Of a stretch of 64,000 bases of DNA, positions 44,363 to 63,658 are shown in pieces (the first letter of the stretch is position 1; every line of letters starts with the position of its first letter). The position numbers and the translations under genes were made by a program. The notes beneath the pieces were generated by a model that worked only from the letters and a program-made list of their open reading frames with translations, was not told the origin of the DNA and did not search any database. Source of the DNA: Promethearchaeota archaeon (GTDB lineage: Archaea > Asgardarchaeota > Lokiarchaeia > Sigyniarchaeales > SOKP01); assembly GCA_048940925.1 (NCBI GenBank), contig JBHLOC010000019.1, positions 1 to 64,000 of the forward strand, given 5' to 3'.

Positions 44363-46159
44363 TTGCAATCAAGTGAAAATATTTCAGAAGAAGAAGTTAT
44401 AAAAGAAGAAATTAAATTTCAATATTTTTGGTATTTGTTTGTGTTTTTTTCAATATATTTAATTTCATTAATCATCCCTGCTATTTTATTTATAGCTTAT
44501 ATCTTTTTGTTCTTTTTACCCTATTTTTTAGAAATTTCAAATTTTTTTGCAATTTTTACCGAATTTAAATCCCTTATAGCATTAATTTCCATGCCCATTG
44601 TTATTATTGGTTGTTACCTTATCCGATTATTTTTCGTAGGCTTAATTACGCGTGGTTTTTGGAGTCTTAGTGAAAAAAAATCACCAAGTAAAAATGGTAT
44701 CATACCACGAAACATCCCAAGTAAAACATTGAATTATTATCACATAAGAAGCTTTATGATCAAATATGGAAAAAACTCTTTTACAAAAGGAGCTTTTCCT
44801 TGGCTCTCTAATTGGTTTTTTAACTTTGTAGGGTCAAGTAAGATTGGAAAGGGAACAACATTAGAAGAAAGTATAGTGAATGATAAATTCATAAATGTAG
44901 GTAAAAACTGTTATTTTGGAGTAAATTCTGCCTTAGCAAGCCATATGGTTGATGGAACCTTTGGAAACATTAATTATTTCAAGATAAACATAGGAAATAA
45001 TGTTACAAGTGCAGGATTAAACCTAATTGCAGCAGGATCTGAGGTACGTGATAATTCATATTTACTTCCACTAGCTTCAACTGCAAAACATAGTATACTT
45101 AAAGGAGGTAATTACTATTGGGGATTACCATTAAGAAAAATATTTAGAAGAAAAATCTTGAAATTTCTTGACTTAACTCCTAAGAATTTAGAGATAAATG
45201 AAAATATTGAGGGATATAAAGATAAACATTTATTAAAAGAGTTAAAAACTAAGAAAATTTTAGCCCAATCTATTAAAAAGTTAGGAAATAACCAATTTCA
45301 AAATAATCTTCATGAGGAAAAAATCGATTTGAATAATTTAACAGAAAAAGATTTAGCAATTGATTTCACAACAAGTAGCGCAATTGCGAGAATAAACATA
45401 AAATTCTTAGCAGTTTATATTCCAATTTTCTGGTTATCTGGCATGATAATCACCATTATTTTTTATACCTTTACGTACTATGTCCAGAATATGGTTTTAA
45501 TGGCTTTTTTACTTCCAGCAATGTTAATATTCATGTGGTTTATTTTTATATTAGGTTGTTTTTTCTTTAGTAAACTGTTTTTAATTCTAATTAATTTAAT
45601 TCATAAACCAAAAGAAGGTATATTTAAAGCAGAGATTGGAGATACTGATTTTGAGTTTTGGTGCTTAAGAACTGAATTAAAAAAAATTGTCTTATGGCTT
45701 ATAAGAAATTGGCCTCTTCCTTGGATGGATATATTGGCTTTCAAATGGTTTGGAGTAAAGATGACTTTATCAAGTTCTTTATATGATTCTTGGTGTGATG
45801 GAGAATTTATTACCTTTGGTAGACGGGTACTTTTAGGTCAAGGTGCTACTATCATGTCGAGTATGGTAGTTGGTCGATATTTATTCATAAAGAATGTAAT
45901 ATGCGGTGATTATTCACTTATCGGCGGACACACCACTATCGCACCAGGAACAGTAATTGGGGAAGATACTTTTGTCAGTGCTATTTCGAATACATTATAT
46001 AATCAAATTCTTGAACCTGGATGGATCTATATGGGAATACCAGTCGTTAAACTTAAAGAAAATAAATATGCTAAAGAAAGAAGAGATATAATAATGAAAA
46101 GAGATGTAGATAAAGAGCAAAAGTTCGAAGTTGAACATGAAGTAAACATTGATAAATAA
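44363..46159 (+). CDS. Membrane LbH protein, fusion of modules A+B
   Basis: N-half homologous to 35854-36780, C-half homologous to 36773-37669. Confidence 0.88.
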   Translation: MQSSENISEEEVIKEEIKFQYFWYLFVFFSIYLISLIIPAILFIAYIFLFFLPYFLEISNFFAIFTEFKSLIALISMPIVIIGCYLIRLFFVGLITRGFWSLSEKKSPSKNGIIPRNIPSKTLNYYHIRSFMIKYGKNSFTKGAFPWLSNWFFNFVGSSKIGKGTTLEESIVNDKFINVGKNCYFGVNSALASHMVDGTFGNINYFKINIGNNVTSAGLNLIAAGSEVRDNSYLLPLASTAKHSILKGGNYYWGLPLRKIFRRKILKFLDLTPKNLEINENIEGYKDKHLLKELKTKKILAQSIKKLGNNQFQNNLHEEKIDLNNLTEKDLAIDFTTSSAIARINIKFLAVYIPIFWLSGMIITIIFYTFTYYVQNMVLMAFLLPAMLIFMWFIFILGCFFFSKLFLILINLIHKPKEGIFKAEIGDTDFEFWCLRTELKKIVLWLIRNWPLPWMDILAFKWFGVKMTLSSSLYDSWCDGEFITFGRRVLLGQGATIMSSMVVGRYLFIKNVICGDYSLIGGHTTIAPGTVIGEDTFVSAISNTLYNQILEPGWIYMGIPVVKLKENKYAKERRDIIMKRDVDKEQKFEVEHEVNIDK

Positions 46160-58255: not shown

Positions 58256-58819
58256 TTAATTCTTCTTAAAGTACATCTTAATTACTACTCTTATTATTTC
58301 TTCGATCTTTTTAAGACAAATAGAGAATTCTAAATTCTGAGGTATATGAATAAAAACTACGGGATATTTATTCTTAGCGAAAATAAGTGCCCAGTAATAA
58401 ATATAATTACACATATAAGTTCCTGCAAAATAGGATATTGAAACATTTGTCTTATCCTTAAGATTAAAATACAATTCATTTACATCTAAAATGGTTTTTT
58501 TGTAAAGTGGAAATCTCCACCTAATGAACCCAAATTTAACTTTTCTCTCGACATCTTTACCAAATACTACATTCCAACCATACTTTTCTATATTTATACG
58601 ACTTTCCGAATGAATACCTAACAAAAACACTAACTCAAGTTGTGAACTTAACATTTCAATCGTGTGTCTATAATATTCTTTACTCTTCTTCCAACTAACA
58701 GGTAATATCCTTTTTATTATATTGTAATTGTTGATTTCTGACGCAATTTTTCTTGTAATTTCACAGCTAAGATTTTTTGTAATATTTCCAAATGGCCCAA
58801 AACCAGTTAATAATATCAA
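58256..58819 (-). CDS. pcp: Pyroglutamyl-peptidase I (C15 family)
   Basis: LLTGFGPF, LPVSW, AGTYMCNY, FIHIP. Confidence 0.88.
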   Translation of the reverse strand: MILLTGFGPFGNITKNLSCEITRKIASEINNYNIIKRILPVSWKKSKEYYRHTIEMLSSQLELVFLLGIHSESRINIEKYGWNVVFGKDVERKVKFGFIRWRFPLYKKTILDVNELYFNLKDKTNVSISYFAGTYMCNYIYYWALIFAKNKYPVVFIHIPQNLEFSICLKKIEEIIRVVIKMYFKKN

Positions 58820-58900
58820 TAGTTAAGCCCAAAATATCATTTATTCAAAAAATTAAGAATTTAATAAATAAAAAAAAAAATACTGTAGGAATTAAAGAGC

Positions 58901-59338
58901 TTATTCTTCTGCTGCTCTCGCAGCTTCAGCTGCTGCTCTTGCCTTTTCTTTTTCTATAGCATTTAATTGCTTTTGTAAGGATTTAATTTCTACTTGCACT
59001 TCTTTAATTTTTGTCTTCTTTTCTCCGGTAATTTCTTTTAATTTTAGGTTTAATGCTTTTTCTTTCTCCTTTTTAAGAGTAGAAAGTTCTTTACTTGCTT
59101 CTTTAGCAGCAGTTGTTTTTGCTTTCTTTTTCGCTGTCCAATCTGCTGCTTTTTCTATAGCTTCATCTCGTAGAGACTCTTCTTCTGCTAATTTGGCTTC
59201 AGCAGCATCAATTTTTGGATTAAATTCTCCTTCAATTTCCGTTTCTGCTGATGCTTCCTTCTTTGAAGCATCCTCTTCAATTCGAGTTATTTCATCTTCT
59301 TTGGCACTAATTTGGCCTCTAATATTTTCTTCAGACAT
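58901..59338 (-). CDS. E/K/A-rich coiled-coil protein
   Basis: Low-complexity all-helical 145-aa ORF. Confidence 0.8.
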   Translation of the reverse strand: MSEENIRGQISAKEDEITRIEEDASKKEASAETEIEGEFNPKIDAAEAKLAEEESLRDEAIEKAADWTAKKKAKTTAAKEASKELSTLKKEKEKALNLKLKEITGEKKTKIKEVQVEIKSLQKQLNAIEKEKARAAAEAARAAEE

Positions 59339-59602: not shown

Positions 59603-60153
59603 TTATACATTTTGTTTAATCGTAAATTCCCAAGCACACCAATAATTATCAGGGTGAGGATCTGGAGGACAGGCTATACATTTTGTTTTAATTCTTGGGT
59701 CAATCGTTTTGGCAAAAAGGCCATACTCTATTATACCCACTTGCTTACAAGGAAAGTCTAGGAGTCCCCTTCGTTTTCTAGCAGATTGTACTCGGCAGTT
59801 ATTCATTCTAAAAACACATTTTTTCTCTGTAACTTCAATGGTCTCTTGAATATTTATATTAGCATATATTCTATATTTTAATGCTTTAATTAAAGCGGGA
59901 ATTCCTCCATTTTCAGGAATATTAAATCGTTGCATAATTCTTTTAGCTTCTATTACAGTGAATCTCTTCCATTGTTTTACATCTAATTCAATAGCTTTAT
60001 CAAGGCCATATTCTGATTCAACAACCTGAAACCAGGTTATAGGTTTAAAGGACTTCTTTAAAACTTTCCATCTATGGCTAGCCAGTTTTTAGAGATATCT
60101 TCAATATAATTCAATAATTCTTCCTTTGATAAATTTAACAAATCTTCTCTCAT
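59603..60153 (-). CDS. DUF6125-like protein, 173 aa when spliced: exon 1 60153-60066, exon 2 60036-59603
   Basis: Exon 1 MREDLLNLSKEELLNYIEDISKNWLAIDG joins exon 2 (T)WFQVVESEYGLDKAIELD..EAKRI..CRVQSARKRRGL..FPCK..CIACPPD..WCAWEF. Confidence 0.88.
60037..60065 (-). other. Putative 29-nt bulge-helix-bulge intron in a protein-coding gene
   Basis: AGUUUUAAAGAAGUCCUUUAAACCUAUAA; central helix AUGG/CUAU, bulges AAA and AAC; removal restores the frame. Confidence 0.8.
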
Positions 60154-60156
60154 AAT

Positions 60157-61044
60157 TCAATTCGAATGTTTTATTTTTTTATGAAAATTTTTCATACTTT
60201 TTGTATTTAATCTCTGGTCATATGAAGAAAATCTTTTACGTTTTCTTTGAAGACTTTCAGAGTAATTATCAAGCAACTCATTAATGAGATTTCCACCTAT
60301 ATACATAATATAAGCACACCCCTTGTATATCTTATTTTTAACTTTAAAGAGAGATTCAACTTTTTTTGGATTATATTGTATTTTGAATTTGTGTTTTAAT
60401 TGTTTTAGGAACAATAAGCTAGCTGTGGTTATTCTAGTTGTATTAGCTGTTCCATCACCATCAAAAAATCCTAAAAGGAATGCTAAATATAGTGTTTTTA
60501 AATGAAATCTTGGCAATTTTATATGATAAGTTTTCCTTTTTCCTACGATCATTCCATGCCTGATTAAATGTTTGCAAAATCCATTTGAATTGATACTAAT
60601 TCTCCAAAAATTACGTTCCTTCCTTTTTCTAATATATTTATTTTCAAAACCAATGATTTTTGATAATTTTAATAAAAGAATTTTATCTTTTAATGAAAAA
60701 CCAATTTCAAAAGTTAATCGGTTATTAGATTTATAACTAATTGATCCATCAGCAAAAATAAGTCCTAAGAAATATGCTTTCTGCTTTGTATCAATATTTT
60801 CAAAATAATTAATCTTAATATTTGGATGATAAAAATAGATTTTATGATTTCTATCTCTAATTAAATGATTATCCTCATACAAATTAAACAATTTAAGAAC
60901 TTCTTGCGTTAAACATCGGTTTAATCTCAAATGTTGTTTCATTTTTGCTAAATCTTTCTTTGAAAAATAGTAATTAGGATTCTCTCTGCATATAGACATT
61001 TTATATTTAAAATAAGATTTATTTCGACTTACTAAAATTCCCAA
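60157..61044 (-). CDS. Free-standing two-motif LAGLIDADG homing-endonuclease-like protein
   Basis: YFLGLIFADGS and AFLLGFFDGDG; very basic; frame stays open upstream to 61158 without an ATG. Confidence 0.88.
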   Translation of the reverse strand: MGILVSRNKSYFKYKMSICRENPNYYFSKKDLAKMKQHLRLNRCLTQEVLKLFNLYEDNHLIRDRNHKIYFYHPNIKINYFENIDTKQKAYFLGLIFADGSISYKSNNRLTFEIGFSLKDKILLLKLSKIIGFENKYIRKRKERNFWRISINSNGFCKHLIRHGMIVGKRKTYHIKLPRFHLKTLYLAFLLGFFDGDGTANTTRITTASLLFLKQLKHKFKIQYNPKKVESLFKVKNKIYKGCAYIMYIGGNLINELLDNYSESLQRKRKRFSSYDQRLNTKSMKNFHKKIKHSN

Positions 61045-63526: not shown

Positions 63527-63658
63527 ATTGGTATATTTTTTTTTTCTTTATTTATTACCTAATAATCTTAAATCCTTTAATTTAGTAATTATGTTGAACT
63601 TTGTATAATTAAGAATTTTTTAAAAATTACAAATAATAAACGTCATAAAGAAAGAAAA

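What the first reader, a model, noticed from the sequence alone, without database searches (positions are those of the whole stretch)
60037..60065. Bulge-helix-bulge intron in a protein-coding (DUF6125-like) gene of a probable Asgard archaeon
Seen: the minus strand reads ..GCC AUAG AUGG AA^A GUUUUAAAG AAGUC CUUUAAAC CUAU AA^C CUGG UUU CAG... AUGG pairs with CUAU (4 bp, one G-U), flanked by 3-nt bulges AAA and AAC on opposite strands. The inner stem is GUUU(U)AAAG/CUUUAAAC and the outer exon stem is AG/CU plus AGCC/GGUU. Cutting after the second base of each bulge removes exactly 29 nt and joins GGA A|CC UGG, giving W-L-A-I-D-G-T-W-F-Q and one 173-aa frame. Unspliced, the frame stops after 31 aa (G-K-F-stop), while both exons are otherwise intact. 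Established: BHB motifs are cut by the archaeal tRNA splicing endonuclease EndA and ligated by RtcB; the well-documented mRNA case is crenarchaeal cbf5. Inference: this is an EndA-spliced mRNA intron in an unrelated gene, possibly a splicing-dependent expression switch comparable in logic to IRE1/RtcB splicing of XBP1. Standard gene callers would miss it. I cannot confirm novelty without a literature search.
Basis: partly seen in the sequence, partly recalled or inferred. Interest (0 to 1): 0.95.

Follow-up and report, generated by a model that had tools for sequence, protein, structure and literature searches.

The report
tRNA-type mini-intron in Asgard protein gene
A 29-base insert shaped like a tRNA intron splits a conserved protein gene of an Asgard (Hodarchaeota-group) archaeon, and comparative evidence says it is cut out of the mRNA, a process so far confirmed in archaea only for the cbf5 gene.

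Summary
On the minus strand, a 29-nt insert (60037-60065) splits a DUF6125 gene. Exon 1 matches Pfam profile positions 2-24 and exon 2 matches 26-164. Removing the insert gives one 173-aa frame reading ..AIDGTWFQ.., as in uninterrupted orthologues.

Five independent alleles carry a 29-nt insert at the same site: this genome, a congeneric Hodarchaeota MAG and three metagenome contigs.
- All keep intact exons (dN/dS 0.06-0.09 where computed).
- The introns differ at 1-6 of 29 positions, while synonymous sites differ at 23-80%.
- One stem pair covaries (A-U, G-C, G-U).

The genome encodes two EndA paralogues and RtcB. I confirmed similar 30-31-nt BHB inserts in its purA, rpoN and rnhB genes.

The intron's distribution on the gene tree is patchy. 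One allele is a mosaic, which suggests the intron moved by recombination together with exon 1.

No RNA data exist, so splicing is inferred, not shown. There is no evidence for an XBP1-like switch. This scan has already noted similar mRNA introns on other DNA, including in this genome. I rate it a new member of a known kind.

The parts
60066..60153 (-). Exon 1 of the DUF6125 gene: ATG at 60153, 29 codons plus the first base of the Thr codon
   Evidence: 31-aa ORF 60058-60153. (Pfam PF19620 profile positions 2-24). (tblastn residues 1-29).
60037..60065 (-). The 29-nt BHB intron. It holds the in-frame TAA at 60060-60058. Because of AA at both borders, three cut registers give the same product.
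   Evidence: The same 29-nt insert occurs in L012, L069, L070 and L072.
59603..60036 (-). Exon 2 of the DUF6125 gene. It includes the stop codon at 59603-59605.
   Evidence: PF19620 profile positions 26-164, E = 2e-70..
60032..60077 (-). The whole BHB motif. Outer helix: 60077-60072 with 60035-60032. Central helix: 60071-60068 with 60042-60039. Bulges: 60067-60065 and 60038-60036. Inner hairpin: 60064-60043.
   Evidence: Sequence reading. Strict-motif scan hit (L039 row). Pair counts on four alleles show 96.7% of cells paired, against 23-48% in slid registers.
60157..61044 (-). Neighbouring free-standing two-motif LAGLIDADG ORF. It ends 3 nt before the DUF6125 start codon. It is context only and is not shown to be part of the intron system.
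   Evidence: Pfam PF14528 and PF00961. It is absent from all 29 other orthologous loci and from the other four intron-bearing alleles.

Best explanation
The 29 nt at 60037-60065 are an archaeal bulge-helix-bulge intron inside the coding sequence of a DUF6125 gene.

Proposed mechanism:
1. The pre-mRNA folds so that exon-1 bases AUGG pair with intron bases CUAU. This presents two 3-nt bulges on opposite strands.
2. The genome's two-subunit splicing endonuclease (EndA) cuts after the second base of each bulge.
3. RtcB joins GGA-A to CC-UGG, creating the Thr codon of the conserved DGTWFQ motif.
4. Only the spliced mRNA encodes the 173-aa protein. The unspliced mRNA gives a 31-aa stub.

Shown here:
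- the motif and the exact junction
- conservation of exons and intron
- presence of the enzymes
- sister introns in the same genome

Inferred, not shown: the cleavage and ligation themselves.

The intron is inherited vertically in places, was lost precisely at least once, and in one lineage seems to have arrived by DNA recombination together with exon 1.
For: 1. Exact junction. Pfam profile positions 2-24 and 26-164 abut across the insert. 28 of 30 orthologous loci are contiguous there, reading DGTWFQ. 118 of the 120 best database homologues carry a contiguous DG(T/A)WFQ motif, 111 of them as AIDGTWFQ.

2. BHB geometry. The cbf5 cut rule (between bulge bases 2 and 3, PMC2738675) gives the right codon here. 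It also does so in purA, rpoN and rnhB of the same genome.

3. Five alleles from independent data sets have a 29-nt insert at the same site, and each gives an intact ORF once it is removed.

4. Purifying selection on the exons. dN/dS is 0.09 and 0.058 against intron-less sisters and 0.064 between two intron alleles.

5. The intron is far more conserved than synonymous sites: 1-6 of 29 differences against pS 0.23-0.80. Binomial P is 1e-7 to 1e-14 for most pairs.

6. One inner-stem pair reads A-U, G-C, G-C, G-U across alleles. 96.7% of cells are paired.

7. The machinery is present. Two EndA paralogues exist, one closest to the catalytic subunit of the Aeropyrum heterotetramer. RtcB is present. 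Asgard (alpha-beta)2 EndA with the broad-specificity L1 loop is described in PMC5829648.

8. The insert is present in DNA contigs of three other samples.
Against: No RNA evidence exists. No spliced junction, circular intron or cleavage assay is available.

The outer exon helix is weak (2-4 pairs, with alternative registers).

In the G010 allele the central helix has an A.C mismatch.

MFE folding of the G000 sequence prefers other exon pairings.

With only five related alleles, covariation is not statistically significant on its own (242 of 500 shuffles reach it).

The exon-2 frame is open through the insert in all alleles, so a frameshift route is not formally excluded.
Confidence: 0.8

Rival explanations
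1. Programmed -1 ribosomal frameshifting at GGA-AAG reads through the insert. This would make a protein with ten extra residues (KVLKKSFKPI) between DG and TWFQ, with no RNA splicing.
For: The exon-2 frame is open through the insert in all five alleles. A hairpin follows the possible slip site. Four of the six G000/G010 intron differences fall on third positions of that frame (my reading).
Against: The slip site is not a canonical X-XXY-YYZ heptamer, and the hairpin starts 1 nt after it instead of 5-9 nt.

None of the 120 best homologues has any insertion at DG|TWFQ.

The third-position excess (4 of 7 variable sites) is not significant.

In the same genome, the rnhB insert carries an in-frame TAA, and frameshifting over the purA insert would replace the Asp codon of the WGDEGKGK motif that exact excision restores. 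Frameshifting cannot be the general rescue for these look-alike inserts.

Frameshifting also does not explain why BHB cut sites restore the junction exactly.
Confidence: 0.05
2. The gene is a pseudogene, or a gene disabled by a small palindromic insertion. The BHB-like shape is coincidental.
For: The insert shifts the frame and brings a stop after 31 aa. Only 2 of the 37 genus genomes that hold the gene carry it. No expression data exist.
Against: Exons of the intron alleles evolve at dN/dS 0.06-0.09, like the intact orthologues.

Five alleles separated by saturated synonymous divergence keep exactly 29 nt and intact frames.

The insert is more conserved than synonymous sites.

The strict BHB motif has a chance frequency of about 3e-4 per position.
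Confidence: 0.03
3. The two parts are expressed separately. Alternatively, only exon 2 is translated from an internal start, giving an N-terminally truncated DUF6125 protein. The insert would then act as a spacer or regulatory hairpin.
For: Gene callers do produce such truncated models, for example P0012, 160 aa, starting MASHRWKVLKKSF... A TTG inside the insert opens a 156-aa ORF in L070.
Against: In G000 the first ATG of the exon-2 frame lies 34 codons inside conserved sequence (ORF 59603-59935).

Possible start codons differ between alleles.

Exon 1 stays under selection and matches the family profile.
Confidence: 0.05
4. The insert is removed from the RNA, but by a mechanism other than EndA/RtcB. 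Alternatively, the ribosome bypasses it by hopping, as in T4 gene 60.
For: Take-off codon GGA, a stop soon after and a hairpin resemble gene 60 superficially.
Against: No matching landing codon is in the right frame. Landing on the GGU of CCUGGUUUC would give the wrong frame and not TWFQ (my reading).

The BHB geometry and the shared cut rule in four genes point to EndA.
Confidence: 0.04

Closest known systems
cbf5 pre-mRNA BHB intron of Crenarchaeota (Desulfurococcales and Sulfolobales; Watanabe 2002, Yoshinari 2006, Yokobori 2009, PMC2738675)
   Same: Both are short introns inside a protein-coding sequence with a relaxed BHB motif. In both, predicted cuts fall between bulge bases 2 and 3, the host has a hetero-oligomeric EndA, and the intron is patchily distributed with gains and losses among relatives.
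   Different: The host gene differs (DUF6125, function unknown) and so does the lineage (Asgard, Hodarchaeota group). There is no sequence relationship to the cbf5 intron. Splicing is not confirmed experimentally here. One allele shows a mosaic exon 1, which suggests transfer by recombination. Many other genes of the same genome seem to be interrupted too.
Archaeal tRNA and rRNA BHB introns, including the intron-rich tRNA genes of Asgard archaea (bioRxiv 10.64898/2026.10.13.758758)
   Same: The motif, size class (about 30 nt) and presumed enzymes are the same. The same genomes carry heavily interrupted tRNA genes: ARAGORN calls introns in 22 of 34 tRNAs here.
   Different: The substrate is an mRNA. 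The exon half of the motif is made of codons, and the ligated product must keep a reading frame. The tRNA preprint does not treat protein-coding genes.
IRE1/RtcB unconventional splicing of XBP1/HAC1 mRNA
   Same: Both involve a frame-changing short intron removed by an endonuclease, with RtcB-type ligation.
   Different: IRE1 is a stress-regulated kinase-RNase that recognises paired stem-loops, not a BHB motif. Nothing here indicates regulation. I found no evidence for a switch.
Collaborative homing of a free-standing homing endonuclease with an ORF-less intron, described for phage group I introns (recalled from memory, not checked in the library)
   Same: In G000 a free-standing two-motif LAGLIDADG gene abuts the intron-bearing gene, about 90 nt from the intron.
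   Different: The other four intron alleles have no LAGLIDADG gene nearby. No orthologue of this endonuclease was found in 53 congeners, where the best identity is 46%. The link is unsupported.

Membership tests
Archaeal BHB intron (EndA substrate) | [quoted passage not shown] | tested here: met
   AUGG/CUAU with bulges AAA and AAC. Strict-motif scan hit. The helix is kept in 4 of 5 alleles; G010 has one A.C mismatch.
Archaeal BHB intron (EndA substrate) | Flanking helices: inner (intron) h' and outer (exon) h | tested here: met
   The inner helix has 7-8 pairs and is 100% paired across alleles. The outer helix is weak, at 3-4 pairs in two alternative registers. This is the relaxed form that (alpha-beta)2 EndA accepts (PMC5829648).
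Archaeal BHB intron (EndA substrate) | Cuts between bulge bases 2 and 3 yield a functional joined product | tested here: met
   Exactly 29 nt are removed. The result is a 173-aa ORF, contiguous with the Pfam profile and the orthologues. The rule is taken from PMC2738675.
Archaeal BHB intron (EndA substrate) | The host encodes a splicing endonuclease and an RtcB ligase | tested here: met
   Two EndA paralogues at C58 and C18. RtcB at C40.
Archaeal BHB intron (EndA substrate) | Excision and ligation observed in RNA or in vitro | not testable with these tools
   No RNA run holds the locus. Only DNA contigs could be laid on it.
Archaeal BHB intron (EndA substrate) | The structure is maintained in homologous introns (conservation or covariation) | tested here: inconclusive
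   96.7% of cells are paired and one pair covaries (AU/GC/GU), but with 4-5 related sequences shuffles match this. Strong sequence constraint on the intron is shown separately.
cbf5 intron lineage | Located in cbf5, at the codon of the catalytic Asp | tested here: not met
   The host gene is DUF6125. It is the same kind of intron but not the same intron.
Programmed -1 frameshift site | Slippery heptamer X-XXY-YYZ with a downstream structure after a 5-9 nt spacer | tested here: not met
   U-GGA-AAG is not a canonical heptamer, and the hairpin begins 1 nt downstream.
Mobile intron encoding a homing endonuclease | The endonuclease ORF lies inside the intron | tested here: not met
   The 29-nt intron has no ORF. 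The LAGLIDADG ORF lies outside it and occurs only in G000.
XBP1/HAC1-type regulated splicing | A regulated (IRE1-like) endonuclease and condition-dependent splicing | not tested
   No expression data exist, and I did not search for IRE1. No evidence bears on regulation.

The most novel reading that the evidence does not exclude
Members of this Hodarchaeota-group genus run a genome-wide mRNA splicing system. Many protein genes, including essential ones such as purA, rpoN and rnhB, would carry about 30-nt EndA/RtcB introns. These mini-introns would be heritable, selectively maintained, precisely lost, and laterally mobile as DNA by recombination that drags flanking exon sequence along. That would be an archaeal precedent for interrupted protein genes in the group of archaea regarded as the closest prokaryotic relatives of eukaryotes.
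Probability: 0.4. Interest if true: 0.85.

Novelty: new member of a known kind. Interest (0 to 1): 0.62.

Why it matters
In the library I could search, archaeal pre-mRNA splicing is confirmed only for cbf5 of some Crenarchaeota.

A second, well-supported class of cases in Asgard archaea would show three things:
- the tRNA-splicing machinery routinely services mRNAs there
- gene callers systematically truncate or split such genes; the database copy of one allele starts inside the intron
- intron gain, precise loss and lateral spread can be studied in a prokaryote related to the eukaryotic ancestor

The mosaic allele gives a concrete, testable route for how such introns arrive. A recent survey of Asgard tRNA introns left that question open.

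Tried and rejected
**RNA evidence.** No RNA holder is listed for the locus. Only DNA contigs could be laid.

**Thermodynamic folding.** The MFE fold of the 66-nt region recovers the inner hairpin but not the full BHB in G000 (z = -1.3). The hand-built BHB scores only -3.7 kcal/mol.

**Genome-wide scan for BHB motifs whose excision merges ORFs.**
- Two versions were run.
- About 1% of random positions pass the ORF test, because of gene starts and gene junctions.
- Observed counts equal expectation, so the scan cannot count introns without homology data.
- It did yield a few convincing candidates and one false positive inside the window, at 63587, which lies in an intergenic region.

**Collection pattern scans.** The first scans used a mis-specified pattern (one N too many) and found nothing. 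The corrected pattern worked.

**LAGLIDADG link (collaborative homing).**
- The ORF is unique to G000 at this locus.
- It is absent near the other four intron alleles.
- It has only distant relatives in congeners.
- A crude search downstream of 30 LAGLIDADG loci was too noisy to show an association.
- One paralogue does sit upstream of the intron-bearing rpoN. I leave this as an unexplained coincidence.

**RNA family search.** Rfam gives no match in the window or at the locus.

**Function of DUF6125.** No NCBIfam match and no solved structure.

**Translational bypass.** Rejected because no landing codon restores the conserved frame.

**Literature.** Four searches found no paper describing BHB introns in Asgard protein-coding genes.

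Full report
**What is there**

On the minus strand, an ATG at 60153 opens a frame that stops after 31 codons at ..AIDGKF*. A second frame runs from 60034 to 59606 and matches Pfam DUF6125 (PF19620) at profile positions 26-164 with E = 2e-70. The 29 residues of the first frame match positions 2-24. Removing 60037-60065 (29 nt) joins GGA-A to CC-TGG and gives a 173-aa protein with ..NWLAIDGTWFQVVE...

**The fold**

- The central helix is AUGG (60071-60068) with CUAU (60042-60039).
- The bulges are AAA and AAC.
- The inner hairpin has 8 pairs with one bulged U and the loop AAGUC.
- The outer helix is weak: UAG/CUG in this genome, or CCAU/AUGG in the other alleles.

MFE folding finds the hairpin but not the full motif (z = -1.3). 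This is not unusual for a protein-recognised motif, but the fold alone proves nothing.

A strict BHB definition hits 2.7e-4 of positions at this intron length. A random 29-nt insert would therefore rarely fit.

The cut rule comes from the cbf5 work (between bulge bases 2 and 3; PMC2738675). It predicts exactly the junction that homology demands.

**Not an artefact, not a pseudogene**

DNA contigs from three other samples cover the insert with no difference.

Of 30 orthologous loci fetched from relatives, 28 are uninterrupted and read DGTWFQ. One congener (G010) has a 29-nt insert at the same codon. Across the 54 genomes of the genus, 37 hold the gene. Only these two have the shortened open frame.

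A pattern scan found G010 again, titled "Candidatus Hodarchaeota archaeon", a phylum of the kingdom Promethearchaeati. It also found two metagenome contigs, L069 and L070. A database protein that starts inside the intron led to a fifth allele, L072.

All five alleles give intact frames of about 171-173 aa after removing 29 nt.

- dN/dS is 0.09 and 0.058 between intron alleles and their intron-less sisters.
- dN/dS is 0.064 between G000 and G010.
- Intact pairs give 0.11-0.13.

The introns differ at 1-6 of 29 positions, while synonymous sites of the same pairs differ at 23-80%. Binomial P is 1e-7 to 1e-14 for most pairs. Both the exons and the intron are therefore under selection.

On an alignment of four alleles, 96.7% of the proposed pairs are standard pairs, against 23-48% for slid registers. 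One stem pair reads A-U, G-C, G-C, G-U. With so few related sequences this is consistent with the fold but not significant.

**Machinery and sister cases**

The genome (4.8 Mb, 90 contigs) has two EndA paralogues.
- One is closest to the catalytic chain of the Aeropyrum pernix heterotetramer.
- The other is closest to the Methanocaldococcus enzyme.

It also has RtcB. The literature describes Asgard EndA as (alpha-beta)2 with the loop that confers broad specificity (PMC5829648).

Following leads from earlier notes of this scan, I checked three other genes of this genome myself.
- purA has a 31-nt insert inside WG|DEGKGK, with helix GGGG/CCCC.
- rpoN has a 31-nt insert in MIV|SHVDLIDELL, with bulges AAA and AAG.
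- rnhB has an in-frame 30-nt insert with a TAA inside GIDEAGR|GSVLGP.

In all three, the same cut rule restores the conserved motif. Each family gave a single match in this genome, and these genes are generally indispensable. The organism must therefore remove such inserts. One shared mechanism is the simplest reading.

My ORF-level scan also points to an EF-2-like gene (C32:27895-27924) and a gene on C30 (66095-66124). ARAGORN finds only 34 tRNAs, 22 of them with introns. This fits the reported intron load of Asgard tRNA genes.

**History of the intron**

On the gene tree, the five intron alleles sit in three places.
- G000 groups with intron-less G018 and intron-bearing L072.
- G010 is sister to intron-less G023.
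- L069 and L070 branch deeply.

Holding the five together is rejected (p-AU 2e-11). At least three to four gains or losses are needed. G018 is nested between two intron alleles and reads GATGGAACTTGG. This looks like a precise loss.

G010 is a mosaic.
- Its exon 1 differs at 10-11 of 88 positions from L070 and L069, but at 23 of 88 from its sister G023.
- Its exon 2 differs at 34 of 419 positions from G023, but at 101 from L070.
- Fisher P is about 1e-6.

The simplest reading is that exon 1 and the intron entered the G010 lineage together by homologous recombination from an L070-like donor. G023's exon 1 is also unusually close to other congeners, so a replacement on that side cannot be excluded.

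**The LAGLIDADG neighbour**

A two-motif LAGLIDADG ORF (60157-61044) ends 3 nt before the start codon. It is unique to G000 among 30 orthologous loci and is absent near the other four intron alleles. Congeners hold only distant relatives, many of them apparently inside larger ORFs. One paralogue lies just upstream of the intron-bearing rpoN. I could not show a link.

**Rivals**

- A -1 frameshift through the insert is formally possible, because the exon-2 frame is open through it. However, it would add ten residues in a motif that never carries an insertion. It lacks a canonical slip site. It cannot rescue rnhB, and in purA it would replace the Asp of the restored WGDEGKGK motif.
- Pseudogene, split gene and ribosome hopping fit worse still.

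**Comparison and novelty**

This works like the cbf5 intron of Crenarchaeota, but it is a different intron in a different gene and lineage. In the library searched, only cbf5 is confirmed. Yokobori et al. noted predictions in other genes. The recent Asgard tRNA-intron preprint does not treat protein genes.

This scan has logged many similar candidates, several in this same genome. One note mentions a 28-nt intron in a DUF6125-like gene of another genome, which I did not check.

I therefore rate this finding as a new member of a known kind. Its particular value is the evidence for selection on the intron and for its spread by recombination. Nothing supports the XBP1-like switch idea. Splicing remains inferred until RNA is examined.

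Noticed in passing
window 60157-61044 (-): A free-standing two-motif LAGLIDADG ORF (295 aa) ends 3 nt before the DUF6125 start. It is present only in this genome at this locus. Three paralogues lie elsewhere in the genome (C57, C17, C26). The C26 copy sits directly upstream of the intron-bearing rpoN.
   Followed up: partly
G000 C41, about 44590-44630 (-) (L036): purA carries a 31-nt BHB insert inside the P-loop motif WG|DEGKGK, with central helix GGGG/CCCC.
   Followed up: yes
G000 C26:36792-36822 (+) (L037): rpoN carries a 31-nt BHB insert. Excision restores ..CCKRMIV|SHVDLIDELL.
   Followed up: yes
G000 C40, within 190286-190915 (-) (L038): rnhB carries an in-frame 30-nt insert with a TAA stop inside GIDEAGR|GSVLGP. 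The central helix is UGGC/GUUA and the bulges are AGA and AAA.
   Followed up: yes
G000 C32:27895-27924 (-) and C30:66095-66124 (+): Two further 30-nt candidates with 9-bp inner hairpins. Excision joins long ORFs: an EF-2-like GTPase of about 750 aa, and a 459-aa protein. They were judged at ORF level only.
   Followed up: partly
G000, whole genome: ARAGORN finds only 34 tRNA genes in a genome rated 100% complete, and calls introns in 22 of them. None lies in the window. Many tRNA genes are probably too interrupted to be detected.
   Followed up: no
L008 (G018:C31), junction region: The nearest intron-less allele is nested between two intron-bearing alleles on the gene tree and reads GATGGAACTTGG. 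This looks like a precise intron loss.
   Followed up: partly
L049 about 2575; L061 about 2660 and 2977; L040 about 3540 (oriented with the LAGLIDADG match on +): Congeners show further 30-32-nt BHB-like inserts with near-perfect inner hairpins, in genes next to or containing LAGLIDADG domains.
   Followed up: no
G028:C53:26088-26432: The DUF6125 orthologue of this congener has TGA and TAA stops inside the match and lacks the first 26 residues. It may be a real pseudogene.
   Followed up: no
window 58256-59338 (-): The order DUF6125, then a 145-aa coiled-coil protein, then pyroglutamyl peptidase is conserved across the genus.
   Followed up: partly
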